The notes: generated from the sequence alone by a model not told the origin. 40,582 bases of DNA from Elsinoe ampelina (GCA_010093995.1 ML992511.1:487316-527897), one strand, 5' to 3'; counted from the stretch's first letter, positions 506-27,439 are shown. Numbers and translations: made by a program.

Positions 506-1054
506 ATGTCTCCTAGTTATTAAAGGTATAGTAAATCTAGCATATCTACACGAAAGAATCTCTTAGAGTTTATTAAATTATTTAGAGCTAACATGCTATA
601 AGCTTACTCTTATTATAAGTCGAAAGAGCTAGACTATAAAGTCTATATTTAGTTAGGTATTTATAGCTAGTATGTTACAAGTAACTACTTAGGTTATAAT
701 ATTTAAGTAACAAAATTAGAATAGTAGCGTTTCTAGTCTAAGTATATTTATTTACGAAAGGAATTAGTTATAGCTAAGACTACTAGAAGAGAAGCTAAAG
801 AAGCTTATAAAAAGGCAAAAGAGGCTTATTAAAGAGCTATAGGTAATAAGCTTTGCCTATATAAAGAGATATAAAAGTTAGAGGACAAGGTAGAGAAAGT
901 AATCTCTCTAGAGAAGACCTATATTTAAGTCTTAGAGTAGAAAGAAATACTATTATTAGTAGATCCTGTCCTACTATAGGACTAGTAATTATTTATGCCT
1001 AACTCTAATTAGAGTTCCTTATTTAGTAACAATTAGGGTGCTTCTATTAGCTAA
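506..1054 (+). pseudogene. Antisense accessory ORF of A1: putative Zn2Cys6-like cluster plus coiled coil (RIPed; 3' end approximate)
   Basis: ATG at 506. In-frame stops are TAA/TAG, compatible with RIP. Tyr codons at 605-697 are spaced x2-x6-x8-x2-x7. A charged helical run follows (LRKELVIAKTTRREAKEAYKKAKEA). The same frame is present in A2. Confidence 0.6.
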
Positions 1055-4000
1055 GTAGTCTTCCTTAGGCATTCTCGTTTTTATTTAGTATTAGTAGCGT
1101 TAGGCCTACCTAGTTAGTTTACTTAGAATAGGTTTTTAGTCTAGTAATCTAGAATTACTTACGAGGTAAGGTATTTCTCTAGTTCCTATATTACCTTACT
1201 ATACTAATGTCCTTTCTAGTAGATAAGATAGTAACGCTTTCCCCTTATAGATTTATAACGTAAAACCCTTTTAATCTTATACTATAGCTTCTATGTTTCT
1301 TTATCTAGTTCGATAGGTCCGGGTATAGTATTCTATAGTACTTTCTCTAGTAGTAATATATAAAAGACTAGATAGATCCTTATATATCTTAGTAGTTCTA
1401 GTTTATATACGTTCTTGTTTTTCTTTTCTAGGATCTTAAAGAGTCCTAGTTTAGTATAGTTAAGTTTCTTACTTAGTTGTTTCGTTTTAATATTTTTACT
1501 AAGGAGGTAAACTTTCTCTCTCTCCTATAGAATTAGTCCTATAATTCTCTTCTAGTTAGTAAACTCTACTATTCTTTATAATATAAATACTATATTGTAG
1601 TATAGCTAGTTATATAGTTTCTTAATGTTAGCTACTAGTATATTAGTATCCTTAGATATTAGCTTAATTCCGAGTGTGTTATAGTATAGATCTAGGTATA
1701 TTCTATAGTTTATGTAAAATAGTAAAATTCTATTAGCTAACTTTCTATTATTAATAGCAAGCTCTACGAGTAGTAATAGTATTACCTATAAGTCTTGCTT
1801 ATAGTTTAGGTAGTAGTATAGGTACTACTCTAGTACTTAATTTGCCTATTTAGTTTGTCTATCTATTTATAGATAAAAGGAAGTTAATAGCTTATATTTA
1901 ACTCCTAGTAGGTCTATAAATAATTACTAGAATTATAATATAAATAGCTTATCTCTATTAGTTATTAGGTCTTATAGTACTCTATGTTATAAAACAATTA
2001 TTCGGAGGAAGATAAAGACTATATCCTTAGTAGTTACTATTGTCTTATATAGTATAAAGTAGTAATACTTCGTAAACCTATCTACTAGGACTAGAATACT
2101 ATTATACTTTACACCTATAAGAGGTTCTTCCGATAGTAGTAGAGGTTCTATAAAGTCTATCGTGACTAATTACTATAGTTTGTCCGGTAGTAGTAAGGGT
2201 TATAATAGCTTATATAGCTTATGTTATAAGTGCTTAGACTTATAGCATATATTGTATATAGCAATATATATCTTAATATTGTTTTAGAGTCCTTTCTATA
2301 GGTAGTTTTATATAATAAGTTTAATAGTCTTATTGATCCTACTATACCTCGCTATTAGGTTATTATAGTATATTTAAATAACTTCTTTCTTCTGTTCTTA
2401 TATAAGCTCCTAGGTAAGGCTATATAACTGCTCTACCTTTAGGTGCTTATAGACTAGAGCGCTATCTTACTACTTTAGTATAGAGGCCTCTATTATTGTT
2501 ATATTCTTTAAGTAATTTAGTTGTTAGCTAAGAGCATCTACTCTACTATTCTCTAATTCCTTAATATAGTAGATCTAAAAGTTATAGCTTATAAGTGTTT
2601 CTAACTATTAAACCTATTATCTATTAAGAACCTTAGTTATTGTCTAATATAATAGGTTCTTATAGTTAGTGTAGACTTATATAGGTAAGGTTATTTCTTC
2701 TAGGTATACTCTCCACTTACGGAATACTTCTATAATTATAAGTAACTCCTTATTATATATATTATAGTTAAGTTTAGGTCTGGTTATTTTTCGTAAGTAG
2801 TATATAATTAGGCAGTGTTATTCTTCTATGTCCTTCTATACTAGATATACTTCTATCGCAAAGTCCGAGGTATTCGTTTCTAGTAGTGCTTATTAGTCTA
2901 GGTTAAAGAGTACTAGGATAGGTGCTATTATAAGTCTAAGCTTTAGCTCCTTAAAGGCCTACCTACACTTTTTGTTAAAGACAAAGCTAGTTTCTTTCTT
3001 CGTAAGGTTAGATATTAGCGTAGCTACCTTAGAGAATCCTTTAATAAACTTATAATAGTAGTTAAAGAATTCTAGTAGTACTTAAACCTCCTTAACTATA
3101 GTAGGTTCTAGCTAGTTATTTACTAACTTAATCTTCTTCGGATCGGGTCTAATACTATTAGTAGATATAACATAGCTTAGAAATTATATCTTATATTTAT
3201 AAAACTTATACTTAGAGAGCTTTACTAGTAGGTCTTTTTCTTTTAGTTTCTATAGTACCTTATAAATATGTCTTATATATTTATTATATAACTTTAAGAA
3301 GATAATAATATTATCTAAATACACTAAGATAAAGTTATTAAGGTATTCTTATAGAGTATTATTAATTAACTCTTAGAAGGTTATAGGAGTATTAGCTAAC
3401 CTAAAGGGTATAACGAGGTACTTATATAGACTTTATTATGTCCTAAAAGCTGTTTTCTACTCTTTGCTCTCCTTTATTTATACTTAATAATAGGCGTCCC
3501 TAATATTAATTATAGTAAACTATTTAGCTCTAAGTAGTTAGTCTTAAAGTTTGTTAATCCTTAGTAAGGGATAGCAATTCTTCCTAGTAAGTGTATTAAG
3601 TTTCTAGTAATTAATATATATTTATAACGTCTTATTCTTTTTAGGTATAAAAAGCACTTCGTGCGTAATAGGTAATTTTAATAGTTATATAAATCCTTTA
3701 AGTAGGTACTTATCGATATAGTCCTTAAAGACATTCTTCTCTTATTTTAATAGTAGTATAAGACCTTAATAGTGTATTAGAGATTTACTCTCTTTAAAGA
3801 GTATTTTGTAATTCTATAGTTTATATTAGAGTAAGGCTATAATATCTTCTCTTTCTTTAAACAAATCTTTAAAGTCTTTATATTTCGGTAGAAGTACTTA
3901 ATTACTTACGCTAGCGATAGCTCTAACTATTAGTCGTACCTATACTGTCCTTATAGTTAGTATCTATAGAGCTAATTATACTCCCTACGTCCTATAATTA

Positions 4001-6413
4001 TACTTAGAGAATTTAAGTGTTTCTTTAATCTAGTCTATGTTTAGATTGTGTTATTAAAGCTAGTCTATACTAAGTACTATATTATACTATATATTAACTA
4101 TATCGATTAATTGTTTTTCTATATGTGTTTTAATTTTAATTATAACGTTTTATAGTTCCTAAGTAACTTTCCTATTCTTCTCTATAGGGGTTCTATTTGC
4201 TATAGTAAGTAGGTAAGGTAACTCCTTCTAATATTAATAAGGTTTAAGCTAGTTAGTAACTATTATAGAAACGTAGCTATAGTTAGCTCCTAAATCTATT
4301 ATTGCTCTTACCTTATTCTCTTATATTTCGACTTCTAGTATAAAGTAGTTTAATATATAGATCTTTATTATATTAAGGCTTTAGCTAGTATTGTTGTCTT
4401 ACCTTATTAGGCAATAACTAGCTAGTTTTTTGTCATTATAGCTCCTTAGATAAGTAGCTAATCCCTTCCTATACGTATCTACTATTAGTACTATATCTAT
4501 TAGGCTAGTTATATCTTATTACTATTTAATATAGTAAGGTAGACTTCTAGCGCTTAGGTTCCTTAATAACTATAAAGTCTAATAATCTTCTACTAATTAT
4601 ACTAAGTAGTGTTATACACCTATATCGGTATAACTATTCCCTCTAGATAGGGCTATATATTAGCGTTAAAGACGAACGCGAGTTAAGTAGATTTATCTTG
4701 TTGTGTCCTACTCTAGTAGTAGGTATATATTATTATATAATTTCTCTATATTCCTATAAGGTACGCCTTAAGTCGTCTACCCGGTAGTAGTACGTCGTTA
4801 TTGTTATTATTGTTAGATAAATTCTTATCTATGTTATTATATTATAGTTATTCGGTGTATCCTTTATTATATTTCTCTTCGTCGCTACTATCCCTAGTAT
4901 AGTTACAATTAGTAAGGCTATACTAAGTATATTCTCTTACTTAGCTATAGGGGATAGTATTACCTATTTTAATTACTAAGAAGTCTATAGTGTATTTAAG
5001 ACTAATAGCGTCTTCTCTAAGTATATTATGTAAGTAGATAGTATAGTACTATTTATAATCTAGATTTATATACTTCTAGAGCGACATATAATATACCTTT
5101 CCTTGCGGTTTACTATAAGGGCTAAAGGTAAGGCTACTATATTATTATATAGTACTTACGTCCTAATACTTTATTTCGATAATTGTATATTAGTAATTGT
5201 CGCTAACTACCTTCTAAGGTTAGTTAATGTTACTACTAATTATAAAGAGCTCTTCTAGGTTAGGTTCCTAGTCTAGCTATTTCGTTAGTTACCTATACTT
5301 AGATAGCTTATATAGGAACTAACTAGATCTCTACTTGTCTAATAAGTAAATATAATAAGAGTTGTTATAATATACTATCTATAATAGTATTATATAATAG
5401 CTTTATTATTTATCGTTAGTTATAGAGATATTAAGTATAATATCTAGAGAGAGTTCTATTACCTCTCGAGTTATTATAGACTTCTTCTATGTTTCCTTAC
5501 CTACGCTAAAGATCGTTAGGTCTTCTATAGTAGTGTTAGCCTTTTTCTCTACTAGCCTAGTAACTATTATATATAATCTATTAGCTAGCGCCTCTTATCG
5601 GTAGTCCCTAGCCTAATATCTAGGTCTTTTATATTTAAAACATAAGTTGTCTTATCTATACTTCTCTCTCTCTTTTCCGCTAAGGAACTTTCCTCTATAG
5701 CTATAGCCTTATACCTATAAGAGGTAACCTTTGCGTATAGTGTTAAGTTCTATAGAGTCTCTATAACTCCGGGAGGAACGTATATACCTAGTATTTACCT
5801 TATATCCTCTATAACGCTCTATACGTCGTTTATAGAGTCTATTATCAATAGCAATTATAGTATCTACTAGCTCCTAGAGGCTATTAGGCGGCTTAAGTAT
5901 TATTTAGTCTTTGACTAAGTTGCTTAGTCCTTAGTAGAATACTAAATGTTTAGCACTATTATTCTAGTCTAGGTATATTACAAGTTATTAGAACTAGGAA
6001 TAGTACTAGGCTATAGACCTACGTTATTATAGTTATTAAATCTTCGTCGCGGTAATACGTTCCTTGTTAGATATATTAAAGACTTACTTAATCTTTGTCT
6101 AAAAGATATTAAAGCTCTTAAAGATAGCCTTTGTATCTAGGCTTAGTTATCTATCTAGGTAGCTACTTATATAAGGCTTAAACTACTTAAAGGCGGCGCC
6201 CTTAAGGTATATCCCGGCATAGAGGACCTTTACTACGTTATTAGCGTACTTATCCCCTTCTAGAGCGAAGAAGGCTTTAAGTTAAATAAGAAAGTGCCTT
6301 AAGTAGGCGTAGTTCTTATAAAAGAGTTTTACTTCTAACTTAGGCCTACTCTATTCTTCCTCTATACTAAGAGACCTTCTATGTTTACCCGAGGTTAAAC
6401 TAGTAGTAGATAT
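1045..6413 (-). pseudogene. gag-pol of A1 (RIPed; ends approximate)
   Basis: Reverse-complement match to the A2 gag-pol, with many RIP-derived stops. Confidence 0.9.
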
Positions 6414-6529
6414 ATCGTTAATAGTAAGCTTTTCTAGCTTACTAACGATCGAAGATACTAATAGTAACTTAGAGCAAGAGTTACTTATTAACCTCGTAGC
6501 GTGCTATACTATAGTAAGAGTAGTTAAAA

Positions 6530-6983
6530 TGTTACGAACTATCTAAATATAGCCTACGCTAGTAGTCTAAGCTAAGCTAAGAACAAGGTAGTTCTACTTC
6601 TATAGTAGTATAGCACTAAGGTAAGAGTCAAAGAAGATATATCTTATAGATAATAAAGTACAATTAGATAGTATTATAAAGGCTAGCCTTAGTAATACTA
6701 GTGTTCGCTATCTAGATAAGGTTAACTATAGTACTTATATAAGGTAAAGACTATTCCTATATATATATATTCTTTACTATGTGCTCTATATACTCTATAG
6801 CGAGAGTCGGGGGCAACATAGAGTACACATCTACTAGTAACCTACGCGCTCTATAGTCTCTAGAGTAGAGCCGCTAGAGAAGATAGAGAATCGAGTAAAC
6901 GTCGGGCTAGGTCACGTAATAACCTTAGCAGTTTAATTAGTTCTAACGTCTCTATGCTCTAGCTGTCCTACTAGTTCGTAATA
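6530..6983 (-). repeat. 5' LTR of A1 (454 bp)
   Basis: TGTTACGAACTA...TAGTTCGTAATA termini; direct repeat of 1-431. Confidence 0.95.
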
Positions 6984-7679
6984 GGCAGCTTATACTACTA
7001 AGTCTAGTAAGAAGAATAATATGTTAAGAGTAGCTAAGTAGATATATAGTTCTAGCGGAATTCTTAAGAAGCTTAAGCATAAGATCTATATAGCTAGCGC
7101 TACTAAGCTTACTATTAATAAAGGTACTAACGAGAATACTAAGAAGAAGTACTTAAAGTTTGTCTAGAAACTTAGTAAGGAGAGTAGGCTTACTACTATC
7201 TCTAATCCTAACTAGTAGTAAGTTCTCTATTATTATTACGTATTATTATTACGTTAGTATACTAATAAATAGCAGAGCTTACAATTCTACACCTCCGGCT
7301 AAGTATTAACTACTCGAGCTAATCTATCTTATAGATAAAGGTAAATATATAAAGCCTAACAACAATAACAAGTGTAAAGAAGTATACGAGCTAGACTACG
7401 ACTCTAAGATCGAGAAACTAGCTAATAAGTACGAGATAGACAAGTAGTATATAAAGTTTAAGGGGTTTTCCTCTAATAAGGATAAGATTATTAATAAGGG
7501 AGAGAGAGTTAAAGCGGAGAGTTCTTTAGAGAGTAAAGATAAGGAGAAGAATAATAATAAGAATAATAATAAGAATAATAATAAGAATAATAATAAGAAT
7601 AATAATAAGAATAATAATAAGGAAGGGAATAAGGAAATAGTCGATGCTAAGGAAGATAAATTTACTAGCTTTAACTAGT
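6984..7679 (+). pseudogene. 3' part of a RIPed spliced ORF of unknown function ending in a long, probably acidic, tail
   Basis: Lys/Glu-rich frame with an intron-like GTAAGT...CTAAT...TAG at ~7218-7273. The C-terminus reads KDKEK(NNNK)nEGNKEIVDAKEDKFTSFN*, compatible with a G>A-mutated D/E tract. Confidence 0.5.
7548..7621 (+). repeat. Tandem repeat (AAGAATAATAAT)x6
   Basis: Directly visible 12-bp unit, in frame with the ORF above. Confidence 0.95.
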
Positions 7680-8135
7680 GGATTTTCTATACTATAATTA
7701 ACTACTAAGTAGTTTAATCTATAGTATAGTCCGGCCCTTTTATAGATTTAAGTTTTATAATAAGATCTTTTCCTATATAGCTACTATTGTTATTTGTGCT
7801 TCTAATTGTTACCTCTAACAATAGTAAATTATCTATATTATTACTTCTAACAATAGATTTCTATTACTATTGTTGCTATAAACAATAGAAGGTACTAGAT
7901 ATATACGCTATCTCGTTTCTGTTTATTCTTCTTTCTAAAACCTCTCTTTCTTATTATTATAGCTTCTCGTATATAACTCTATCCCGACCTAGAAGATCTA
8001 ATCCTCTACTAGCCTCGTACTATAACTTATAGTAACTACGCTAGGCTACTATACTTACGTTAGTATAAAGCTTGTATCTACTATATAACTAAGTAATTTA
8101 TTAATAGCGAGGAAAGATAGACTACTCGTATCTAT

Positions 8136-8338
8136 TGATTATAACTAGTAAGATAAGAGGTTAATTACGTCTATTTATTAAGATATTAAGACTTAGAAGA
8201 AGAAGAAGAAAAGCTAGTATATAAAGCACGCGTAATATTGAGAGCGAAGTAGCTAGAAGCCTAAGCTACGATACTAAGATTACGTAACTAATCTAAACTA
8301 GATCTTAACTAAATCTAGTTCGTATCTATCTCGTATTA
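8136..8338 (-). repeat. 3' LTR of B1
   Basis: Direct repeat of 14198-14400; TGAT...(ATCA>ATTA) termini; adjacent PPT. Confidence 0.95.
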
Positions 8339-8349
8339 CTACTTTCTCT

Positions 8350-11300
8350 CTTAAGCGCGTTTGCCCTTAAACGCTATTATATATTATTTATTAATCTATT
8401 TCGGCCTTAGCTTATCTATATAAGAGTCTAGATAGTCGCGTAGCATATCGGCTACTCCTTTAAGGTTGTTAATTAGCTACTAGGTAAGATCCTCTAGATA
8501 GCTCTTCTAGCTTATATAAGCAACTAGCTTCCCTTATAGTATATGTATGTTAATTACATTGTCTACCTTATACTCTTCCTTACTATCGATCTTTACTAGA
8601 GGTAGTTCCTTAAAGGCTTAGCCTAGTAGGGGGTTATTTAGGTGCTTAGTAAGGAGGTCGGCGTAGAACATAGGGTAAATCCTTTAGAGAGTAGCTAGTA
8701 GATTAAGCTTGTATATTAATAGTAACTGTTTTTCGAGAATCTTATAAGAACTAATATACTTCGGTAGTAGCTTTAGATTACCCTATAGCCGAAGGTTTTT
8801 CGTTAATAACTACACTAAATCGCTAGCTTTAAACTCTATTAGCTAGCGGTGTTTATTAGCTTACTCTACTATTCGTAACTAAGTAATAGCAAGGTTAGCT
8901 TTAGTAATAGTAAGGGCTTCTTCTAGTTGTTTAGTAAGCGCGCGAATTTCGGCCTTATTAAGCTTAGCTCTTATTAATAGTAAGTTAGTAGGGGGCTAGA
9001 AGCTTATTCTTAGCTTATATCCTCTAGTTACCTCGAATAGCAATAGCTTAGTACTTTCCGAGGGGTTAGCGTTTATAGAGAACTCTATAACTAGTAGGAC
9101 AAGGGTCTAATTACTAAACTGTGTTATATAGGATTAGATAACTTATTTAAACTTTTAGTTTATAACTTCTAATTAGCCGTCTATTTAAGAGTAGCTAGTA
9201 GTAGATAGCTTAGCTATAATCTTTAGGATCTAGTAGAGCCTCTTCTATACGTCGCTAACGAACTAAGGGCTATAGTTAGAGGTAATACTATCTAGTAGGC
9301 TATGTAGTTTCTACACGTAGAAGAATAATAGCTTAGCTATTTCGAAAGTAGAGGTTTCTTCTTCTCCCTAGAAGTAAGGGATTAAGTGTCGCTCCTTAGA
9401 TAAGCAATCGATAATATATAGTACTACGTTATAGCTATCTACTAGGGGTAGGCTAGTAACGAAGTCTATAGTAATATATTGCTAAGGCCTTACTAGAATA
9501 GGCAATAGTAATAGAAGGCTAGCTAGCAAGCCGTAGCGAGCCTTTAAGCGCTTATAGTTATAATAGTTAGCTATAAACCTCTTAACGAAGTTGTTATAGC
9601 TTAGGATATAAAAGGTAGTCTTAATTATAGTAGCCGTTTTAGTAGCTTCTCTATGTGTATAGTCCTTCGATATATAGACTTCTTAGATAACCTTTACAGC
9701 TATTAACTACGGCACGAATAGTTAGCCGGCAATCTATAATATCCCTTTATTAATAGTAACATTGCTCGACGGCAGCTATTTCCTCTTTAGGAAGGCCTCT
9801 ATTATATAGTAGATGCCTCTAACTGTTTTGCACTTAGCGTCTTATAAGTTAGCTTTAGCTACTTCTTCGAAAAGGGGTAAAGGTTCTTTCGTAGCTAAGA
9901 TAGGTACTACGTAGATACCTAGTTTAGTAGCCGAAATAGGCGCTAATACAGGTAGCGAAATAGGAGGCAAAATCGGTAGCGAACTAGATAGCGAACTAGT
10001 TCGCGAACTAGATGCTAAACTAGATCTTAGTTCGGCTTAGATTAGTAATCTAGTTCGGATACGACCTAGATTTAGTTCGTTAATAATGCGCTAATCTAGC
10101 ACCTTATATAGTAGTAGCGTCTAGCGTAGATTAGAGTCTTCTCTCGAATGTAGTATATCTCTATTTCTCCTTATAAGTGCATCGGCCTTGCTATTAGTAG
10201 CGCTAGGCCTATATATAATCTTAAAGTTAAACTACGTAAGGTAGAGGGCCTAGCGTACTTAGCGGCGTAATAGCTTCTAAGTCTTTATAAAGTGCATTAA
10301 GGATTAGTAGTCGGTAAGGACATAGATAGCCTTATCGGATTAAGTGCTTATAAGCTTAAGAGCCTATTCCTCGAAGGCTTAGACAATTACTAGTAGTTCC
10401 TCGTCGTAGATAGCGTAGTTACGTTCGGCTTTATTTATAGATTTACTAAAAAAGGTAATAGGCCGGAGAATATTAGACTTATCGTATTATAATAGAATTC
10501 TAGCGGTAGTAGTGTCGGAGGCGTTAGTCTTAAGGACTATCTACTTTAAGCGATCGAAATACATAAGGATAGGTACACTTATAACAGTGTACTTTATATA
10601 GTTAAATACGGTAGTGCACTTGTTATTCTATAGTGTAGTATCCTTCTTAAGGAGATTATTTAGTAGCTTAGCGATAGTACTAAATCCCTTAATAAAGCGG
10701 CAATAGTAGCTATAGAAACTAATAAAGCTTCTTACCTAAGTAGTGTTACTAGGAGCTAGCTATTTCTAGGCTTATATAGCTTCTATCTTCTTTAGATCTA
10801 TTTTAACTCTATCTCGGCTAACAATAATACTAAGATACTTTACCTCTGTTAGGTAGAACTTACTCTTCTTAATATTAGCGTTTAGGCCTAATTCGTAGAG
10901 CCTCTAGAGCACTAGCTTAATATACTTAGTATGCTCTTAGCGGGAGCCGTTTATATAGATAAGAATATTATCTAGGTAGATCGACACGAAGCGCTCTAGT
11001 ATATTGACAAAGTTGTAATTTATAAACCTCTACTAGACTATAGAGGCATTAGTAAGGCTAAACGGCATTACTAGCTACTTAAAGTTACCTATGCATATAG
11101 AGAATATAGTAAGATCTTTACTATTAACAGAGTTATAGAGGCAGTAGAAGGCTTAATAGATGTCGATCTTACTAAACTATTTAGCCTTACTTACGCGCGT
11201 AAGTATTTCTTCGATAAGGGGTAGAGGATAGATATCTTACTTAGTTACCTCGTTAAGGCTATAGTAGTTAACGTAGAGATAGAGTTCTCTACCTAGCTTA

Positions 11301-14195: not shown

Positions 14196-14197
14196 AG

Positions 14198-15069: not shown

Positions 15070-15532
15070 TATTACGAACTAGTAGAATAGCTAGAGCGTA
15101 GAGACGTCGAGACTAATTAAACTACTAAGGTTATTACGTAACCTAGCCCGACATTTACCTAGTTCTCTATCTTCTCTAGCAGCTCTACCCTTAAAACTAT
15201 AGAGCGTATAGGTTACTAGTAGACGTGTACTCTATGTTGCCTCTAACTCTCGCTATAGAGTATATAAAGTATATAGAGTATATAGTAAAGAATATATATA
15301 TATAGGAATAGTCCTTACCTTATATAAGTACTATAGTTAACCTCGTCTAGATAGCGAATACTAGTATTACTAAGGCTAGCTTTTATAATACTATCTAATT
15401 GTACTTTATTATTTATAAGATATACCTTCTCCAACTCTTACCTTAGTGCTATACTACTATAGAAGTAGAACTACCTCGTTCTTAGCTTAGCTTAGACTAC
15501 TAGCGTAGACTATATTTAGACAGTTCGTAACA
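15070..15532 (+). repeat. 5' LTR of A2
   Basis: T(G>A)TTACGAACTA...CAGTTCGTAACA termini; direct repeat of 21629-22091. Confidence 0.95.
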
Positions 15533-15648
15533 TTTTAACTACCCTTACTATAGTATAGCACGCTACAAGGTTAATAAGTAACTCTCGCTCTAAGTTACTA
15601 TTAGTATCTTCGATCGCTAGTAAGCTAGAAAAGCTTACTATTAATAAT

Positions 15649-18600: not shown

Positions 18601-21017
18601 TAGAAAACAGCTTTTAGAACATAATAGAGTCTATATAAGTACCTCGTTATACTCTTTAGGTTAACTAATACTCCCGTAACCTTCTAAGAGTTAATTAATA
18701 ATACTCTACGAGAATACCTTAATAACTTTATCTTAGTATATTTAGATAATATTATTATCTTCTTAAAGATGTATAACAAACACGTAGGACATGTTTATAA
18801 AGTACTATAGAAACTAAAAGAGAAAGACCTACTAGTAAAACTCTCTAAGTGTAAGTTCTATAAGTATAAGATACAATTTCTAGACTATGTTATATCTACT
18901 AATAGCATTAGACCCGATCTAAAGAAGATTAAGCTAGTAAACGACTAGCTAGAACCTATAATAGTTAAGGAGGTTTAAGCGCTACTAGGGTTCTTTAACT
19001 ACTACTATAAGTTTATTAAGAGGTTCTCTAAAGTAGCTACGCTAATATCTAACCTTACGAAAAAGGAAACTAGCTTTATCTTTAACAAGGGATATAGGTA
19101 GGCCTTTAAGGAGCTAAAGCTTAGACTTATAATAGTACCTATCCTAGTACTCTTTAACCTAGACTAATAAGTACTACTAGAAATAGATGCCTCGGACTTT
19201 GTAATAGAAGTGTATCTAGTATAGAAGAACGTAGAAGAATAACACTACTTAATTATATACTACTTACAAAAAATGACTAGACCTAAACTTAACTATAATA
19301 TATATAATAAGGAGTTACTTATAATTATAAAAGCATTCCGCAAGTAGAAAGTATATCTAGAAGAAATAACCTTACCTATATAAGTCTATACCGACTATAA
19401 GAACCTATTATATTAGACAATAACTAAGGTTCTTAATAGATAACAGGTTTAATAGTTAGAAACACTTATAAGCTACAACTTTTAGATCTACTATATTAAG
19501 GAATTAGAGAATAGTAGAGTAGACGCTCTTAGCTAACAACTAGACTACTTAAAGAATATAACAATAATAGAGGCCTCTATACTAAAGTAGCAAGATAGCG
19601 CTTTAGTCTATAAGTACTTAAAGGTAAAGTAGTTATATAGCCTTACCTAGGAGCTTACGCAAGAATAGAAGAAAGAAGTTATTTAAATATACTATAATAA
19701 CCTAACGGCGGGATATAGTAGGATTAATAAGACTATTAAACTTATTATATAAAACTACCTATAGAAAGGACTCTAAAACGATGTTAAGACATACGTTACT
19801 ATATACGATATATGCTATAAGTCTAAGCACTTATAACATAAGCTATATAGCCTACTATAACTCTTACTACTACTAGACAAACTATAGCAATTAGTTACGA
19901 TAGACTTTATAGGACCTCTACTACTATTAGAAGAACCTCTTACAGGTGTAAAGTATAATAGCATTCTAGTTCTAGTAAATAGGTTTATAAAATATTACTA
20001 CTTTATACTATATAAGATAATAGCAACTACCGAGGATATAGCCTTTATCTTCCTTTAAATAATTGTTTTATAACATAGAGTACTAAGAGACTTAATAACT
20101 AATAGAGATAAGCTATTTATATTATAATTCTAGCAATTATTTATAGATCTACTAGGAGTTAAATATAAGCTATTAACCTCCTTTTATCTATAAATAGATA
20201 GACAAACTAAATAGGCAAATTAAGTACTAGAGTAGTACCTATAATGCTACCTAAACTACAAGTAAGACTTATAGGCGACACTATTACTACTCGCGGAGCT
20301 TGCTATTAATAATAGAAAATTAGTAAATGAAATTTTACTATTTTACGTAAACTATAGAATACACCTAGATCTATACTATAATACACTCGGAATTAAGCTA
20401 GTATTAGAGAATGCTAATATACTAGTAGCTAACATTAAGAAACTATATAACTAGCTATACTACAATATAGTATTTATATTATAAAGAATAGTAGAATTTA
20501 CTAACTAGAAGAGAATTATAAGACTAATTCTATAGGAGAGAGAGAAAGTTTACCTCCTTAGTAGAAACATTAAAACAAAATAACTAAGTAAGAAACTTAA
20601 CTACACTAAACTAGGACTCTTTAAGATTCTAGAAAAGAAAAATAAGAACGTATACAAACTAGAACTACTAAGATATATAAGGATCTATCTAGTCTTTTAT
20701 ATATTACTACTAGAGAAAGCACTATAGAACGCTATACCTAGACCTATCGAACTAGATAAAGAAACATAGGAGCTATAGTACAAGATCGAAAGGGTTTTAC
20801 GTTATAAATCTATAAGGAGAAAGCGTTACTATCTTATCTACTAGAAAGGACATTAGTATAGTAAGGTAATATAGGAACTAGAGGAATACTTTACCTCGTA
20901 AGTAATCCTAGATTACTAGATTAAGAACCTATCCTAAGTAAACTAACTAGACGGACCTAGTACTCCTAATACTAAATAAAAACGAGAATGCCTAAGGAAG
21001 ATTACTTAGCTAATAGA
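15649..21017 (+). pseudogene. gag-pol of A2 (gag, Zn knuckle, long spacer, PR, RT, RH, IN, chromodomain; end approximate)
   Basis: ATG at 15649. Protease IDLGA (DSGA) ~17760. RT LVYLDNIII (YLDD) 18739-18750. RNase H EIDASDF ~19180. Chromodomain YKIERVLRYK..KRYYLIY*KGH..SKVI*ELEEYL ~20778-20890. Confidence 0.92.
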
Positions 21018-21554
21018 AGCACCTTAATCGTTACTAAATAGAGAACCCTAGTTAGAGTTAGGCATAAATAATTACTAGTTCTATAGTAGGATAGGATCTA
21101 CTAATAATAGTATTTCCTCCTACTCTAGGACTTAAATATAAGTCTCCTCTAAAGAGATTACTTTCTCTACCTTGTCCTCTAACTTTTATATCTCTTCGCG
21201 TAGGTAAAGCTTATTACCTATAGCTCTTTAATAAGCCTCTTTTGCCTTTTTATAAGCTTCTTTAGCTCTCCTTCTAGTAGTCTTAGCTATAACTAATTCC
21301 TTTCGTAAATAAATATACTTAGACTAGAAACGCTACTATTCTAATTTTGTTACTTAAATATTATAACCTAAGTAGTTACTTACGACATACTAGCTATAGA
21401 TACCTAACTAAACATAGACCTTATAGTCTAGCCTCTTCGATTTGTAACAAGAATAAGCCTATAGTATATTAGTTCTAAATAGCTCTATAAACTCTAAGAG
21501 ATTCTTTCGTATAGATATGCTAGATTTACTATGTCTTTAACAACTAGGAGACAT
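21006..21554 (-). pseudogene. Antisense accessory ORF of A2 (Zn2Cys6-like plus coiled coil; RIPed; 3' end approximate)
   Basis: Homologue of 506-1054 with an intact ATG at 21554 and the same Tyr spacing at 21455-21363. Confidence 0.6.
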
Positions 21555-21628
21555 ATTTAGTATATAGCGCATAAAGACAAGAAAGAATACTTACTCGTTA
21601 GAACAACTCGATTAAAGGAGGAGAGTAA

Positions 21629-22091
21629 TATTATAAACTAGTAGGACAGCTAGAGCATAGAGACGTTAGGACTAATTAAACTACTAAGGTTATTACGTAA
21701 CCTGGCTTGACATTTACCCGGTTTTCTATCTTCTCTAGTAGCTCTACCTCTAAAACTATAGAGCGCGTAGGTTACTAGTAGATATGTACTTTATATTGCT
21801 CCCGACTCTTACTATAGAGTATATAAAGCACATAGAGTATATAGTAAAGAACACATATATATAGGAATAGTTCTTACCTTATATAAGTACTATAGTCGAC
21901 CTTGTCTAGATAGCGAACACTAGTATTACTAAGGCTAGCCTTTATAATACTATCTAATTGTACTTTATTATCTATAAGACATACCTTCTTTAACTCTTAC
22001 CTTAGTGCTATACTACTATAGAAGTAGAACTACCTCGTTCTTAGCTTAGGTTAGACTACTAGTATAGACTATGTTTAGATAGTTCGTAATA
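21629..22091 (+). repeat. 3' LTR of A2
   Basis: Follows the PPT; ends TAGTTCGTAATA followed by the TSD. Confidence 0.95.
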
Positions 22092-22096: not shown

Positions 22097-24620
22097 ATAT
22101 ATTTCTCTCTAGCTATTCTAGTAGAATTACGTAGCTTTATAATCTCTGCTTAGAATATTAGACGCGATAGTAGAATACGACAATTATAACTCCTTAAATG
22201 CCTGCCTTTTTAACCTAGTAAGAGATCTAAGAATTAACCTCTATAATAAGCCTAGAAAGACTAGTAGGGTTAAACAATTATAGTATCTATATATAGAGAG
22301 GGCACGAAAAATACACTAAATTAGAATTCTAAAGCACATTCTAGAGGTCTATAGGCAAATGTTATAGAAGCTACTAAGATTTATAATAGAGAACTATAAG
22401 TTATTTATAATAGGTGTAGTAATATACTTACTTATTCTACTTACTATCGCACTAGTAATAAAGCAATAGAGAGACATCTTAAGTCCTAGAAATACACTAT
22501 AGTTGTTAAGTACTACTACGAGTAAAGCCCTGCCTAAAAAGCTCTTAAGTAATTATAATAGCATATAAAGAGCATTTACTAAATTGTCTCTCTATTCTCT
22601 ACTAATACCTTCTACTATAAGCTTGTTTATATAGTTACTAACTATAACTAGTCTTTCCGTATAGTTAAGTGTCCTACCTTTAGCTAATTCCTCTACTTCC
22701 TTCGACCTAATATTACTATACCTAGCCGGACTCTTTTTTAAGTAATACTAGTAGCATAATTCGAGAAGTTATAAAAATTACTACTCTCTAACCTCGGTAA
22801 GAACACTAAGCTTTTAATAGCGTTAGATAGATAGTCTACTAATAACTACTTAGAGTTTATTATAATTAAAGGCTATTTTATTAATAACTAATAGTAATTA
22901 TAAGAGCGGCTCTTAGAAATAATACTTCTTTAAGGTCGCTATACTAGTAAAGCTATAGTAAACAAGGTAATATAGGTACTAAAAGATATATCGGTTAAGT
23001 AATAACTACTTATAGTTATAGTAGATAATATATTAAATAATAGAATACTCCGAGAGTCTCTTAAAAGAAGCCTAGGTACACTAGATATTAAGTAGAATAT
23101 AAAGGAGAATATAATTCTATGCCTAGTATATATTATTAATCTTGTTATATAGGACATTATTAAGCATCTAAAACTTAAGACAAGCGAAGAGATTAACATA
23201 GTAGAGAAGTTATAAAACTGCTATATCTAGGATATTACAATATTAGTCTCTATCTCGAATTTACTACGGAAGGTATATAACATTTATTACATTATTTTAT
23301 TACGTTCTAATATTAGTAAGCTCTACGTAATATGTATTATAATTAATAGTTCCCTATAATAGTTTAAACAATTTATAGACCTCTAGAAGCATCTACTACT
23401 TAAGAAGAGGTACTAAGTTATATATAATATTAAGATACGCTAGAATTTAATATATAATATATATAAGCGAGCATTAAAGCTTAAACCTTTTATTAAGAAT
23501 TAGCTCGAGGATAAGACTATACTCTAAGTACCGAGAACTTCTTCTAAGATATTAATATCTAAACTGCTCTCTAACATTAATAACTATAACTTTACTAAGT
23601 TATTACTTAATCTAAATAAGTAGTAGTATCTTAAATCTATTATAGTAATACTAGAGAACTTTAAGAAAGTAATAACATAGCTAATTACTAGTAGCTAACC
23701 TCTTCTCTAGTATATATAGACGATGTATAATACACTCTTTAACTTCTTAGATAAAATCGAAGAGGGCCTAATTAGCACTAAGAATTATAACAATCTACTT
23801 ATATAGCTAGCTACTATATAAAAGGTAGTAGTAAAGGGACAAGAGAAGCTTAAGAAATACTATATATAAACTAAGGATAGAAAGGGTATACTCTATAACT
23901 ATGTAACAATTCTTAACCCCTCTAAGAAGCTTATAGTATATAATATAAGGGCCTATAGTCTTTCTAGTAAGTAGTAGCTAATAACACTTAGAATATAGAG
24001 ACTTAGAAACCTTACTATAAAGACGACTATTATAAGGAGTTCTTATAGTACCTTCGTCGGTATAATAAGATAGACCTCTTAATTGCTTTACTAGCCTCTA
24101 CCCCTAAGCTATTATATCACTAGCAACGAGACTAGTTTAACTAACCGAAACGAAAGGAGTAAGGTTATGCCCTATTACTATAAAGCGATAGTCTATACTT
24201 CTTATTTATTCTCTCGAAGCGTACTATAGTTAAAGAAGGTAAGGACTACCTTATAACACTACCGGTCTATATTTAGAAACTTAATGTCTTATAGTAGTAG
24301 AAAGAGAAGGAAGAAGAATATCTATTACTATTACATATAGTAAAAGATATTCTAGTAATCCTAATTATAGGGGTTAGAGTCGAGTAAGTGTTTAATATTA
24401 TAAAGAATATTATTAGTGCGCGGAGGCATAAATTAGTAGCCTAAACTATTTAGTAGCTTATAATATTAAAGTATAAGCTTAAAGTAGCCTCGCTATTAGG
24501 ACGGATTAATATAGAACTAGAGATAGAGGATAAGGCTACTAATACTAACAATTTACTTAAATTATTATTAAGGACTAATGTAAATTAACTAGACAATATT
24601 ACTATAGTACTAAGCTATAG
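22097..24620 (+). pseudogene. hAT transposase (RIPed; N-terminus probably starts ~15016, left of A2; end approximate)
   Basis: De-RIPed motifs: IALDGWS..NHL.F..IKGYFID ~22815; GRHTG ~22935; VT.DN..NN ~23015; IPCLAH.INLV.QD ~23113; TRWNS ~23435; C-terminal dimerisation domain L.WWK....EYP.L..MA.DIL.IP..GVGVERVF ~24285-24395. Confidence 0.9.
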
Positions 24621-25015: not shown

Positions 25016-26445
25016 TATCTACCTAAAAACTACTCTATAGTAGAGACAAGAGTAGAGCGCTATAGAACATATAAGATAATCTTCTCTTCTATAAAGAGTT
25101 ACTAGTTATTCCGAATAATAGCGTACTTAAGGCATAGGTGCTACGTATATACTATAATAGTAAATAGGCTAGTTACTTTAGTAAGAATAAGATACTTAAA
25201 CTTCTCTTACGGAAGTACTTCTAGATAACTATAAGGAAAGACATTAATAACTACGTATAGTTATACTAAGTATGCTAGAAATATAAGGCATACTACTATT
25301 ACCTCTATAGCGAGCTACGTGTACTACCAATACTAGACTACCTATAGTAAGAAATTATAATAGATTTTATTACTAACCTACTACTAAGTAAGTAAGGTAG
25401 TAGCGTCTATAATATAGTACTAGTAATTATAGACTATTATACTAAGATATTACTATATGTCCCTACTACTAAGAAGTATATATCTATAGAGCTAGTAGAG
25501 ATCCTATATAACTACGTTATTCGCTATTATAGTGTCCTAAGGGGAATAGTAAGCAATTAAGGATCGGTCTTTACTAGCTAGTTCTAGAGTAAATTCTATT
25601 ATAAAACGCATATAAAGCGTAGGCTTAGTATAGCCTTTTACCTGTAGATAGATAGCTAAACTAAGTAGTAAAACTAGATATTAGAATAGTACCTAAGGTA
25701 CTACTATATAGAGCTATAGAACGACTAGGCTAAATGTCTATTATAAGCGGAATTTATAAGTAATAATAGCGTTTATACTACGCTACGTATAAGCCTCTTC
25801 TAAATAATATATAGCTACTATCTAGAGTTAGAAGTAATAGCTATTAAGTCTCGAGACAAGACTTTAGAGAGAAGAGTACTAGTAGTAGTAGAGTTAGCGT
25901 AACACTTATAAGATACATATATAAAGCTAGTAGAGTAATAGAAAGAGACTTCCGCCTACTAGGCTAAGTACTATAATAGGAAGCATATACTAAGGGTATA
26001 TAGCATAGGTAACTTAGTACTACTCTTAGCTAAGAACTTATAGCTACCTATACTAAAGAAGAAGATAGAACTACAATTCCTTAGCCTATTCTATATACTT
26101 AATATAATTAAATCGTAGGCGTATTACCTAGCTTTACTAAGTTAGTATTGTATCTATAATGTCTTTTATATATCTCTTCTTAAACTATAGACAAGTAGAG
26201 CTAGTAAGGAGCTAGAAGAGAGTATACCTCTTACTAACGAAGTAGATAAGTAGATAGTAGAGAAGATTCTAGGCAGAAGAACTACGAAGGGTAAGGTATT
26301 CTACTTAGTAAAGTAGAAGAACTAGCCTATTAAGTTTAATAGCTAGAAACCTAAAGAGAATTATATAAATATAGGAGAGCTAATTACTATATATAAGTTA
26401 TAGCTAAGAGTAGCTAAGAAAGGTCGCCGAAGGTGTAGATTATAG
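25016..26445 (+). pseudogene. pol remnant of C (integrase HHCC, core, chromodomain; end approximate)
   Basis: De-RIPed HHD..AGHFG..KT.ELL.RKYFW ~25130-25225; MDFITDLP ~25360; STAFHPQTDGQTE ~25630; W.VEKIL.RR..KGKVFYLVKWK.W...FNSWEP ~26250-26355. Confidence 0.9.
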
Positions 26446-26643
26446 AGCATATAAGTAGATAGATTATATAAACACATAAATAGAGTAAAGAGTAGACTCC
26501 TTATCTAGGGAAATGTATTTTAATAAAGCGCTACACTTATGCTACTATTATAGGTATTAACCTAAACTCTATACTCTATTATGTTCTATATAAGGCCTTA
26601 TTATAGATATAGCGCTAGGGATATATACCTAGCTTATATACGC

Positions 26644-27439
26644 CTACTTATTCTTATTACTATCCTCGTCTACCTCTATACTAAGATTCTCCCCTATAGG
26701 TACTATAGGGGCTATAAGCTATCTACTAGCTATAACATAGTCGATTTTAGTAGTAGAACTACTAGAGCTATATACTATCTAAACCTATTAGCCGTATTTA
26801 TAACATATAAGGAGTATAGTCTAACTTACCTCCTTGCCGATAGTAATTAAGCTATAAAGACTATACCTAATCTTCTATAGCTCCTTAACCTTCTTACGCT
26901 CGAGCGCGATACTACTAAGTAAGCCGCCTACGGGCCCTATATAAGGAGTTAAGACCTCGCTAACGACCTTATTCTTGTTAGTATAGTATACCTTAAGTAT
27001 AGTCTTAAACTTCTTAACCTTAGAGATGTTCTTATAGACTATAGCGTATATACGCTTCTTAGCTATAGTAATACTAGCCTAGTTAGGGGCCTTAAGCTTA
27101 GTAACTATATTAAAGGCGTCGATATATATACTACATAGAATAGATAGAAGCGGCTTATATATATACTTACTATAGGCGTAGTATTTACACTTATAATAGA
27201 AGAAGATACTAAAGTTACCTCTAGTATAGACATAATCTACTACGAATTAGTTATGTCCCTTATAAGAGCTCTATTAGCTTACTCTCGGTAATGCTATTAG
27301 TATACCTAGTATAGGTATTAGCCTTCTCTTTAGGAAGTAAAGGGGTTATAGAGTTAGCGCTAGTAGTAATAGCTCTCTAGGCGCTAGTAGACCTTACACT
27401 ATAAGTGTTAGCTATAGGGGAGCTAGAGTTAAATAATAT
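26644..27439 (-). pseudogene. Antisense, intron-containing accessory gene of C (Cys cluster, acidic C-terminus; RIPed)
   Basis: Predicted exons 27439-27283, 27236-26830 and 26778-26644. Introns are GTAAGC..CTAAT..TAG and GTAAGT..CTAAT..TAG. The spliced frame has only a few TAG stops and contains TYTRY...KCKYYAYSKYIYKP and ...EVDEDSNKNK*. Confidence 0.6.

What the first reader, a model, noticed from the sequence alone, without database searches (positions are those of the whole stretch)
506..27439. Three unrelated transposon families each carry a small six-cysteine (Zn2Cys6-like) accessory gene
Seen: three extra reading frames outside gag/pol/transposase, at 506-1054 (twin 21554-21006; Gypsy A), 27439-26644 (Gypsy C) and 7959-8135+14406-14716 (hAT backbone). 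They share no evident nucleotide similarity. Known: RIP converts TGY (Cys) to TAY (Tyr), and GAL4-type clusters are C-x2-C-x6-C-x5-12-C-x2-C-x6-8-C. Inferred spacings are x2-x6-x8-x2-x7 (A), x2-x9-x12-x2-x6 (C) and x2-x16-x9-x2-x6 (hAT), so all have an N-terminal CxxC and a C-terminal CxxC-x6/7-C. Inference: fungal TEs of both classes may repeatedly carry a zinc-cluster accessory factor (transactivator, targeting factor or anti-silencing protein, by analogy to plant VANDAL/VANC). Most cysteines are inferred, and I cannot check whether this has already been described.
Basis: partly seen in the sequence, partly recalled or inferred. Interest (0 to 1): 0.85.

Follow-up and report, generated by a model that had tools for sequence, protein, structure and literature searches.

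The report
Antisense zinc-cluster gene in fungal retrotransposon
One of the three proposed genes is real: a mutation-wrecked copy of a small zinc-cluster protein gene that a lineage of fungal Gypsy retrotransposons carries on the opposite strand behind pol, while the other two proposed genes look like chance patterns.

Summary
The window is RIP-mutated fungal repeat DNA (GC about 30% up to 35 kb). The six-cysteine pattern, read with Tyr standing for Cys, is not significant on its own. It occurs in 11 (strict) to 25 (loose) places in the 35 kb.

Frame A (506-1054 +; twin 21554-21006 -) is nevertheless a real gene remnant. A profile of the two copies finds intact 188-211 aa proteins (best E 1.6e-12). 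These carry true C-x2-C-x6-C-x8-C-x2-C-x6-8-C exactly where the window has Tyr. A family profile built without the window hits both copies at E 2e-24 and nothing else in the window.

In 48 of 61 metagenome loci the gene lies tail to tail with the chromodomain end of a Gypsy pol on the other strand, inside 6-7 kb units. It is under purifying selection (median dN/dS 0.22). The predicted fold is an N-terminal helix, a cluster whose best matches in the Protein Data Bank are LAC9 and GAL4 (weak scores), an 80-residue dimerising helix and an acidic tail. Pfam PF00172 is not reached.

Frame C could not be reproduced. The hAT frame has no support. So one Gypsy lineage carries this gene, not three transposon families.

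The parts
506..1054 (+). Frame A, copy 1: RIP-inactivated antisense accessory gene (183 codons, about 18 stops) of Gypsy A copy 1
   Evidence: Family HMM built without the window: 74.5 bits, E 2.7e-24, window 521-997. 85.1 bits after RIP-saturation of both sides. 46 of 50 conserved family columns are reachable by undoing C>T / G>A, against 4-7 of 50 in wrong frames.
605..697 (+). Six-cysteine cluster of copy 1 (codons 34-64), all six Cys now TAY
   Evidence: Codon table. Alignment to intact relatives.
713..955 (+). Long-helix (dimerisation) region of copy 1
   Evidence: Aligned to family positions that form one helix, residues 75-156 of P0001, pLDDT 94-99. Homodimer model.
21006..21554 (-). 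Frame A, copy 2: the same gene in Gypsy A copy 2. Its ATG lies 60 nt from the polypurine tract.
   Evidence: 74.3 bits, E 3.1e-24, window 21542-21096. 86.5 bits RIP-saturated. ATG and polypurine tract read.
21363..21455 (-). Six-cysteine cluster of copy 2
1..7009 (-). Gypsy A copy 1 (chromovirus). 3' LTR about 1-440, polypurine tract about 434-446, 5' LTR 6554-7009. gag-pol is on the minus strand.
   Evidence: Repeats. Minus-strand translation with RT, integrase and chromodomain. tblastn with an intact relative's pol: window 4311-1234, E 7e-110.
15044..22089 (+). Gypsy A copy 2. LTRs 15044-15509 and about 21629-22089, polypurine tract 21614-21625.
   Evidence: (pol 17839-20826, E 2e-125).
26644..27439 (-).
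   Evidence: 17% stops. No Pfam hit. No family hit. Motif not reproducible.
25123..27532 (+). Gypsy C fragment: integrase zinc finger, SH3 and chromodomain (ends about 26394), then about 1.1 kb of unknown content up to a polypurine tract at about 27499-27532
   Evidence: Pfam hits just under cut-off in RIPed sequence. tblastn 25312-26370. Sequence.
7959..8135 (+).
   Evidence: No Pfam hit in any of six frames of 7010-8133. No family hit.
14406..14716 (+).
   Evidence: No Pfam hit in six frames of 14401-15047. No family hit.
22190..24480 (+). hAT transposase remnant (RIPed)
   Evidence: Dimer_Tnp_hAT E 1.9e-4, 21.6 bits against a cut-off of 21.4, at about 24277-24474. The start near 22190 is my reading of the translation (inference).
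8130..14400 (-). Gypsy B (second copy inverted at 28042-33231). pol runs up to the LTR with no room for an extra gene.
   Evidence: Repeats. Translation. tblastn.

Best explanation
SHOWN. Frame A is a RIP-destroyed copy, present twice, of a conserved gene of about 190 aa. A lineage of chromodomain-bearing Gypsy retrotransposons of ascomycetes carries it on the strand opposite to gag-pol, between the end of pol and the polypurine tract and 3' LTR. The named carriers are all Dothideomycetes. This makes it an 'aORF-3R' in the terms of the plant literature. The protein has four parts: a basic N-terminus with one helix; a six-cysteine cluster C-x2-C-x6-C-x8-C-x2-C-x6-8-C whose spacing and predicted fold are those of the GAL4-type Zn2Cys6 cluster; a single helix of about 80 residues; and an acidic tail with a conserved L-S-P-x-T-W motif.

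INFERRED. The protein binds two zinc ions, dimerises through the long helix and binds DNA. It is made from an antisense promoter in or next to the 3' LTR, because its ATG is only about 60 nt from the polypurine tract. It acts as the element's own regulator of transcription or silencing, working like the antisense-encoded HBZ factor of HTLV-1. In this window both copies are dead.

Frames C and hAT are chance Tyr/Cys patterns in Tyr-rich RIPed DNA.
For: Identity:
- hmmsearch of the two window copies (X at stops) against 1.84 billion representatives gave 6 hits of 188-211 aa, best E 1.6e-12.
- The alignment puts real Cys at all six Tyr positions.
- The family grows to 41 proteins and 206 proteins. 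The 120 listed are all 143-280 aa and none has a precomputed Pfam domain.
- A family HMM without the window hits only the two A copies (E 2e-24).
- 46 of 50 conserved columns are RIP-reachable, against 4-7 of 50 in control frames.

Transposon linkage:
- 48 of 61 loci have the gene convergent with the chromodomain end of a Gypsy pol, with a gap of -76 to +209 nt.
- Three intact elements show gag and PR-RT-RH-INT-chromo on the other strand.
- 8 contigs close on themselves at units of 6.0-7.3 kb.

Constraint:
- 51 of 61 loci keep all six Cys.
- Median dN/dS is 0.218, and 100 of 103 pairs are below 0.5.
- Protein identity is like that of pol (0.47 against 0.48) and above gag (0.35) in 28 pairs.

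Fold:
- The domain model has pLDDT 86.4, with a short helix after each CxxC.
- 17 of the 19 Foldseek rows shown are Zn2Cys6 DNA-binding domains.
- In a search of 48,161 chains only 5 reach Z 2 or more, led by LAC9 (Z 2.4, rmsd 1.9 A, 33 of 33 residues) and GAL4 (Z 2.2).
- The best hit of the domain profile in the Protein Data Bank is LAC9.
- UniRef names two members 'Zn(2)-C6 fungal-type domain-containing'.

Dimer: ipSAE 0.49 against a best control of 0.00. That mark was reached by 21 of 30 proteins solved as pairs of one chain and by 0 of 23 solved as single chains. The runs agree in at least 68% of contacts and the partner's pLDDT is at least 75. The interface covers residues 72-141. The full-length model has one helix at 75-156.
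Against: - No member reaches Pfam's cut-off for PF00172 Zn_clus. 12 of 43 match weakly, best E 0.097 (12.1 and 9.7 bits against a cut-off of 21).
- All structural scores are weak: Foldseek best E 0.3, Z no higher than 2.4. The PDB profile hit has E 0.19.
- The predicted dimer is antiparallel (88 with 123-130, 109 with 109), unlike GAL4's parallel coiled coil. That would put the two clusters far apart.
- CGG/CCG triplets, the usual half-sites of Zn2Cys6 factors, are not enriched in the LTR-containing regions of 8 elements: 7-16 observed against 12.7-23.9 in shuffles.
- There is no evidence of transcription or of any function.
- 3 loci with room downstream (L005, L006, L015) have no pol beside the gene.
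Confidence: 0.6

Rival explanations
1. Three unrelated transposon families (Gypsy A, Gypsy C and a hAT) each independently carry a small six-cysteine zinc-cluster accessory gene, so such genes are a recurrent feature of fungal transposons of both classes.
For: Frame A is real. Frame C sits in the same kind of place as frame A: antisense, in about 1.1 kb of unexplained sequence between the chromodomain and the polypurine tract. The hAT spacing can be reproduced on the joined pieces, with 2 real Cys.
Against: No hit of the family profile at C, hAT or B, plain or RIP-saturated. No Pfam hit. Frame C has the most stops of the six frames there and its stated motif is not found. The second spacers (x9, x16) lie outside the GAL4 rule (x6). 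Such patterns occur 25 to 106 times in the 35 kb. The hAT pieces lie more than 400 nt upstream of the transposase start, and no inverted terminal repeat or target duplication encloses them.
Confidence: 0.05
2. The A-family protein is a true transposon gene but not a DNA-binding transcription regulator. The cysteine cluster and long helix serve another step. Examples are binding the element's RNA or cDNA, bridging two DNA ends or tethering the pre-integration complex (the antiparallel dimer would suit bridging), nuclear import, or blocking host silencing through protein contacts.
For: The dimer model is antiparallel, with the clusters at opposite ends. CGG half-sites are not enriched in LTR regions. 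The Pfam Zn_clus cut-off is not reached. A review read in passages says that functions of antisense ORFs between pol and the 3' LTR are unknown, and that one plant example is nuclear (PMC7264820).
Against: The only folds that match the cluster at all are Zn2Cys6 DNA-binding domains. Basic residues lie between Cys2 and Cys3 (consensus C-S-x-C-x-K-H-x-R-V-C). The acidic tail with aromatic residues looks like an activation region (inference from the alignment).
Confidence: 0.3
3. The A family is a host gene that merely lies next to Gypsy insertions, or was transduced once. It is not a stable component of the element.
For: Three loci (L005, L006, L015) show the frame without an adjacent pol. A few members are annotated in genome assemblies as ordinary hypothetical proteins.
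Against: 48 of 61 loci show the same tail-to-tail arrangement, and 9 of the other 13 are too short to tell. The gene lies inside the LTR-bounded unit in self-closing contigs. Both window copies carry it. Its divergence is like that of pol over 28 pairs. The three pol-less copies carry 2-4 stops.
Confidence: 0.03

Closest known systems
Antisense additional ORFs between pol and the 3' LTR ('aORF-3R') of LTR retrotransposons: maize Grande gene23, rice RIRE2, Silene Retand, Phaseolus PvRetro13 (review PMC7264820, passages read)
   Same: Position (between pol and the 3' LTR), antisense orientation, presence in most copies, and conservation comparable to the element's other proteins.
   Different: Those are plant elements. 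The review states that no clear similarity to other proteins has been described for any of them. This family has a recognisable cysteine-cluster fold plus a dimerising helix, and sits in fungal chromoviruses.
brtn, the antisense gene of Boty-like Gypsy elements of Botrytis cinerea and Sclerotinia (Zhao et al. 2011, Virology; seen only as a citation in PMC8365987, PMC7264820, PMC4227169 and PMC5987419; the paper itself is not held)
   Same: A fungal chromodomain Gypsy element with an extra antisense gene near the 3' end.
   Different: Whether brtn is related is unknown, because its sequence was not on hand. No protein named BRTN appears among the 41 hits or the 120 rows listed, which is weak evidence against kinship. 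Boty's hosts are Leotiomycetes (recalled). The named hosts here are Dothideomycetes.
GAL4-type Zn2Cys6 binuclear-cluster transcription factors (GAL4, LAC9, PPR1, PUT3, LEU3, HAP1, Pho7)
   Same: Six Cys with spacing inside the family rule, a short helix after each CxxC, basic residues between Cys2 and Cys3, and a dimerising helix right after the cluster. These are the best and almost the only structural matches.
   Different: Below Pfam's cut-off. Only about 190 aa, with no large regulatory region. It has an extra N-terminal helix and a conserved K-V-H-V-R-S-G loop. The predicted dimer is antiparallel. It is encoded by a retrotransposon.
HBZ, the antisense-encoded bZIP factor of HTLV-1. The antisense promoter in the HTLV 3' LTR is mentioned in PMC7264820; the rest is recalled.
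   Same: A small dimerising transcription-factor-like protein encoded on the minus strand at the 3' end of a retroelement, with its start next to the 3' LTR.
   Different: HBZ is a bZIP, not a zinc cluster, and belongs to a vertebrate retrovirus. There is no sequence relation. It is an analogy of working only.
VANC of Arabidopsis VANDAL transposons
   Same: A transposon-borne accessory protein that acts on the element's own sequences.
   Different: VANC belongs to a plant DNA transposon, is an unrelated protein and has an anti-silencing function shown by experiment. Nothing here tests anti-silencing.

Membership tests
Unnamed family of ~190-aa antisense Gypsy proteins (P0001-P0147, loci L001-L061) | Significant match of the window frame to a family profile built without the window | tested here: met
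   74.5 and 74.3 bits, E 2.7e-24 and 3.1e-24, over about 150 of 194 profile positions. No other positive score in six frames of the window.
Unnamed family of ~190-aa antisense Gypsy proteins (P0001-P0147, loci L001-L061) | Differences from the family explained by RIP (C>T, G>A only) | tested here: met
   46 of 50 conserved columns are reachable, 23-24 are identical as they stand, and wrong-frame controls give 4-7 of 50.
aORF-3R (antisense additional ORF between pol and 3' LTR) | Lies between the end of pol and the 3' LTR, on the opposite strand | tested here: met
   Window. Loci: 48 of 61. Pfam of three elements.
aORF-3R (antisense additional ORF between pol and 3' LTR) | Conserved as a coding sequence across copies and families | tested here: met
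   Median dN/dS 0.218, 100 of 103 pairs below 0.5. Identity like pol.
aORF-3R (antisense additional ORF between pol and 3' LTR) | Antisense transcript made | not testable with these tools
   No listed run that holds the stretch is on record as RNA. The one presumed RNA run that was laid gave no cover.
   51 of 61 loci have x2-x6-x8-x2-x6/7/8. In the window all six are TAY, consistent with TGY.
GAL4-type Zn2Cys6 binuclear cluster (Pfam PF00172) | Score at or above Pfam's curated cut-off (21 bits) | tested here: not met
   12 of 43 members match weakly, best E 0.097; 12.1 and 9.7 bits. The precomputed Pfam column is empty for all hits. Two members carry the UniRef name 'Zn(2)-C6 fungal-type domain-containing'.
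GAL4-type Zn2Cys6 binuclear cluster (Pfam PF00172) | Fold superposable on solved Zn2Cys6 domains | tested here: inconclusive
   The best matches are Zn2Cys6 domains, but the scores are weak: Foldseek E 0.3 or worse; LAC9 Z 2.4, rmsd 1.9 A over 33 of 33 residues; GAL4 Z 2.2.
GAL4-type Zn2Cys6 binuclear cluster (Pfam PF00172) | Dimerisation helix directly after the cluster | tested here: met
   One helix at 75-156, pLDDT 94-99. The homodimer model scores 0.49 against a control of 0.00, but it is antiparallel.
GAL4-type Zn2Cys6 binuclear cluster (Pfam PF00172) | Binds two Zn(II) ions and DNA with CGG half-sites | not testable with these tools
   Needs protein chemistry. As a side test, CGG/CCG triplets are not enriched in the LTR regions of 8 elements.
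Boty brtn | Sequence similarity to BRTN | not testable with these tools
   The paper and the sequence are not held. No hit carries that name.
   no homology, the highest stop density for C, the motif for C not reproducible, and the hAT motif present only on joined pieces with 2 stops inside.

The most novel reading that the evidence does not exclude
A widespread lineage of ascomycete chromoviruses encodes its own transcription factor on the antisense strand. It would be a dimeric Zn2Cys6-type protein made from the 3' LTR that binds the element, or bridges two sites of it, and sets its transcription or its escape from silencing. That would make it a fungal retrotransposon counterpart of HTLV-1 HBZ. 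It would also be the first antisense ORF between pol and the 3' LTR with an assignable biochemical activity.
Probability: 0.35. Interest if true: 0.78.

Novelty: new variant of a known kind. Interest (0 to 1): 0.62.

Why it matters
Antisense extra genes between pol and the 3' LTR have been known for decades in plant retrotransposons and in Boty. A 2020 review (PMC7264820, passages read) says that none resembles a known protein and that their functions are unknown. This family offers what those lack:
- a recognisable metal-cluster DNA-binding-type fold plus a dimerising helix;
- hundreds of intact natural copies;
- clear purifying selection;
- a fixed place in the element.

The question 'what do antisense retrotransposon genes do?' therefore becomes testable with zinc analysis, DNA-binding assays and LTR reporters. 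The case also shows that genes can be recovered from heavily RIP-mutated DNA by profile search with X at the stops. And it shows that Tyr-for-Cys pattern reading alone gives many false positives in such DNA.

Tried and rejected
- Pfam on the five frames as given: nothing at E up to 10.
- Pfam on six frames of 7010-8133 and 14401-15047: nothing relevant.
- Laying public contigs on 7900-27500 to read the disputed codons in other copies: the table of other letters was cut (2182 rows not shown) and did not include the codons wanted. It showed only that transitions dominate, that the Gypsy A body has cover in run X1, and that it has almost none in the two runs of organism B.
- No RNA holder is listed, and the presumed RNA run X5 laid nothing. 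This is no evidence on expression.
- hAT ends: the best inverted matches (7165-7184 with 24968-24987; 14713-14733 with 24545-24565) have no matching 8-bp target duplication.
- CGG/CCG half-sites in LTR regions are not enriched.
- PDB profile search: only non-significant hits.
- VIA second look at the 23 Foldseek chains: 3 with Z 2 or more, none at 5 or more.
- ESM Atlas: nearest clusters are unnamed 'hypothetical protein' clusters of Ascomycota, with no Pfam family.
- Zhao et al. 2011 (brtn) could not be read.
- Seven full-text searches and passages of PMC3248453 and PMC10799480 gave no description of a zinc-cluster gene in a fungal retrotransposon. Subscription journals, Repbase and Dfam were not searchable.
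- Tandem repeats in 26400-28041: only trivial ones.
- One protein search was left unused. I judged a word-seeded search with frame C (17% stops) to be without prospect.


Full report
SETTING
Bases 1-35000 have 26-39% GC and the rest 53-57%. The AT-rich part is a nest of repeats whose copies differ almost only by transitions. Contigs laid on the stretch show A>G 375, T>C 366, C>T 507 and G>A 548 against about 80 transversions in run X1. This is the signature of RIP.

Repeat mapping, read-through translations and tblastn with an intact relative's pol give this map:
- Gypsy A copy 1 at 1-7009, with gag-pol on the minus strand.
- Gypsy B at 8130-14400 (minus strand), with a second inverted copy at 28042-33231.
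- Gypsy A copy 2 at 15044-22089 (plus strand).
- A hAT transposase remnant at about 22190-24480. Dimer_Tnp_hAT scores 21.6 bits against a cut-off of 21.4.
- A truncated Gypsy C, from integrase to chromodomain at about 25123-26394, then about 1.1 kb up to a polypurine tract at about 27499-27532.

THE OBSERVATION
Frame A and its twin exist and are 89% identical. About 18 of 183 codons are stops. The six 'cysteines' (codons 34, 37, 44, 53, 56, 64) are TAT or TAC in both copies, so none is seen directly.

In this DNA Tyr makes up 8.9% of all codons over six frames.
- The strict GAL4 pattern with Tyr allowed for Cys occurs at 12 starts in 11 clusters, 2 of them frame A.

The pattern alone is thus no better than chance. 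Frame C has 17% stops, the most of the six frames there. Its stated spacing is not present in it with Cys or Tyr. The hAT spacing appears only after joining the two pieces. It has 2 real Cys, 4 Tyr and 2 stops inside.

FRAME A IS A REAL GENE
A profile of the two copies, with X at the stops, was run against 1.84 billion representative proteins. It found six proteins of 188-211 aa, best E 1.6e-12, aligned over nearly their whole length.

Five are intact. They carry C-x2-C-x6-C-x8-C-x2-C-x6/7-C exactly at the window's Tyr positions. His sits where the window has Tyr in K-V-H-V, and Trp sits where the window has TAG. The sixth (P0005) has Tyr at four of the six positions, the same decay as in the window.

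Profile searches enlarged the family to 41 proteins and 206 proteins. The 120 listed are all 143-280 aa, so the protein stands alone rather than being a piece of something larger. None has a precomputed Pfam domain.

The members with names come from Bathelium, Elasticomyces, Sporormia, Aureobasidium and Elsinoe, which by my recollection are all Dothideomycetes. The ESM Atlas places the family in unnamed Ascomycota clusters.

A family HMM built without the window hits the two A copies at 74-75 bits (E 2e-24) and nothing else in six frames. At 50 family columns with at least 80% one residue, the window has the family residue in 23-24. In 46 the family residue is reachable by undoing only C>T or G>A changes. 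Shifted or reversed frames give 4-7.

IT IS A RETROTRANSPOSON GENE
A scan of metagenome contigs gave 61 loci.
- In 48 loci, the gene is followed on the other strand by the chromodomain end of a Gypsy pol, with a gap of -76 to +209 nt.
- Of the other 13, nine have under 300 nt of contig left downstream.
- One (L037) has a pol fragment.
- Three (L005, L006, L015) have room but no pol. Their copies carry 2-4 stops.

Three intact elements were read in full. Each has an open 188-190 aa frame on one strand, and gag (Retrotrans_gag, zf-CCHC) plus protease, RT, RNase H, integrase and chromodomain on the other. Eight contigs close on themselves at 6.0-7.3 kb. Only 440-770 nt lie between the start of gag and the ATG of the small gene, which is room for one LTR and little else.

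In the window the ATG is 60 nt from the polypurine tract, and the stop lies a few tens of bases from the end of pol. This is the same layout.

IT IS UNDER SELECTION
51 of 61 loci keep all six Cys. The last spacer is 6 residues in 31 loci, 7 in 17 and 8 in 3. Those that lost Cys are truncated, are RIP-like with Cys changed to Tyr, or in one case have a different spacing.

Among 26 distinct intact frames, 103 pairs with unsaturated dS have a median dN/dS of 0.218. 100 of the 103 are below 0.5, and the four closest pairs give 0.04-0.16. In 28 pairs of 8 intact elements the protein is as conserved as pol (median identity 0.47 against 0.48). It is more conserved than gag (0.35) in 15 of 15 comparable pairs.

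WHAT THE PROTEIN LOOKS LIKE
The domain model (36 sequences) has pLDDT 86.4, with a helix at 3-17 and a short helix after each CxxC. The full-length model has one helix at residues 75-156 with pLDDT 94-99, and a low-confidence acidic tail.

- Foldseek finds nothing at E 0.001 or better. Of the 19 rows shown, 17 are Zn2Cys6 DNA-binding domains (Pho7, Leu3, Put3, Gal4, Lac9, Ppr1, Hap1). One is a CBF3 chain, which I recall as the Zn2Cys6 protein Cep3. One is an HNH nuclease.
- A search that does not lean on Foldseek, over 48,161 chains, finds only five with Z 2 or more. They are LAC9 (Z 2.4, rmsd 1.9 A, 33 of 33 residues, 27% identity), GAL4 (2.2), a phage neck protein (2.1), PPR1 (2.1) and a respiratory-complex chain (2.0).
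- The domain profile's best hit in the Protein Data Bank is LAC9 at E 0.19, with all six Cys aligned.
- Pfam's Zn_clus is matched weakly by 12 of 43 members (best E 0.097) and never at its cut-off.
- UniRef names two members 'Zn(2)-C6 fungal-type domain-containing'.

I therefore call the cluster GAL4-like in spacing and in best-matching fold, but not a Pfam-certified member.

A two-copy model of residues 30-150 scored 0.49 against 0.00 for the best of three controls. That mark was reached by 21 of 30 proteins solved as pairs of one chain and by 0 of 23 solved as single chains. The runs agree in at least 68% of contacts and the partner's pLDDT is at least 75. The contacts (88 with 123-130, 102 with 116, 109 with 109) describe an antiparallel pairing of the long helix. 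This supports dimerisation but does not show it. It differs from GAL4.

HOW IT MOST LIKELY WORKS (INFERENCE)
The ATG lies within tens of bases of the polypurine tract, so the promoter must lie in or at the edge of the 3' LTR, pointing inward, as for HBZ of HTLV-1. The protein combines a cluster of DNA-binding type, a dimerising helix and an acidic, aromatic tail. It is most simply read as a small dimeric regulator that acts on the element's own DNA.

Against the simplest version, CGG/CCG triplets are not enriched in the LTR regions of eight elements. The antiparallel model would also place the two clusters far apart. That suits bridging of two sites, or a non-transcriptional role, at least as well. 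I put the identity of the gene at about 0.95 and the regulator mechanism at about 0.45.

THE OTHER TWO FRAMES
- Neither the family HMM nor a version in which both the family and the window were driven to RIP saturation finds anything at frame C, at the hAT pieces or in Gypsy B. The saturated version raises frame A to 85-86 bits. All other scores are negative.
- Pfam finds nothing there.
- Gypsy B's pol runs up to its LTR, so not every Gypsy here has room for such a gene.
- Gypsy C does have about 1.1 kb of unexplained 3' sequence. A different, unrecognised gene there cannot be excluded, but nothing supports the frame or the cysteines proposed.
- I read the hAT transposase as starting near 22190, downstream of the Gypsy A insertion.
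- No terminal inverted repeat with a target duplication encloses them.

WHAT IS KNOWN
Antisense extra ORFs between pol and the 3' LTR are known in plants (Grande, RIRE2, Retand, PvRetro13), and in Boty of Botrytis and Sclerotinia. A review says that none resembles known proteins and that their function is unknown (PMC7264820, passages read).

The Boty gene brtn (Zhao et al. 2011) is the nearest precedent. I could see it only as a citation and could not read the paper, so kinship is untested. Seven full-text searches and passages of two fungal transposon surveys gave no description of a zinc-cluster gene in a fungal retrotransposon. Subscription journals and repeat libraries were outside reach.

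VERDICT
One Gypsy lineage, not three transposon families, carries a conserved antisense gene for a small Zn2Cys6-like, probably dimeric protein. In this window it is a RIP-killed relic. It is a new variant of a known kind, the antisense extra ORF between pol and the 3' LTR. Its interest is that its fold makes its function testable.

Noticed in passing
window 36355-38824 (+): The GC-rich block beyond 35 kb holds two open frames with EF3/GCN1 HEAT, four-helix-bundle and two ABC_tran domains (E down to 7e-26). This is an elongation-factor-3-like ABC-F gene, apparently untouched by RIP, about 1.3 kb from the repeat nest.
   Followed up: partly
window 8130-14400 and 28042-33231: Gypsy B is present twice in inverted orientation, with LTRs of about 209 nt. 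Its pol, with a chromodomain-like end, runs straight up to the LTR, so it has no room for an antisense gene. It is a natural contrast to Gypsy A.
   Followed up: partly
window 15094-21633 versus 8554-14439 and 22288-26865: In contigs of two runs of a second organism (coded B), the Gypsy A body has almost no cover (0 in seven of ten bins), whereas Gypsy B, the hAT and Gypsy C are covered. In the run of organism A, Gypsy A has the highest summed depth. Gypsy A may be specific to one of two related species.
   Followed up: no
window 24890-24901: A run of 12 C in otherwise heavily RIPed, AT-rich DNA, just past the hAT remnant and before the Gypsy C fragment.
   Followed up: no
window about 7530-7620: A short tandem array that reads as (NNNK)n, (EXXX)n or (YSYY)n in different frames. 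This low-complexity DNA produces one of the chance 'six-cysteine' matches (minus-strand hit at 7613).
   Followed up: no
P0005, P0042; loci L048, L049, L051, L060: Other genomes hold copies of the same gene with Cys changed to Tyr and with TAA/TAG stops. This is the same RIP-type decay as in the window, so the family is repeatedly hit by RIP in its hosts.
   Followed up: partly
loci L005, L006, L015: Three related copies of the small gene lie on long contigs without a Gypsy pol beside them. They carry 2-4 stops. They may be remnants after deletion, or copies that left the element.
   Followed up: no
P0001 residues 72-141 (family helix): The homodimer model pairs the long helix antiparallel, symmetric about residue 109. 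If true, this puts the two cysteine clusters at opposite ends of a rod about 80 residues long, unlike GAL4.
   Followed up: partly
family alignment A4, C-terminal tail: A conserved L-x-L-S-P-x-T-W-x-A-x-x-G ... D-x-F-W motif lies in an otherwise acidic, low-confidence tail. The window keeps L-F-M-P-N-S-N-TAG at that place. It is possibly a short interaction or activation motif.
   Followed up: no
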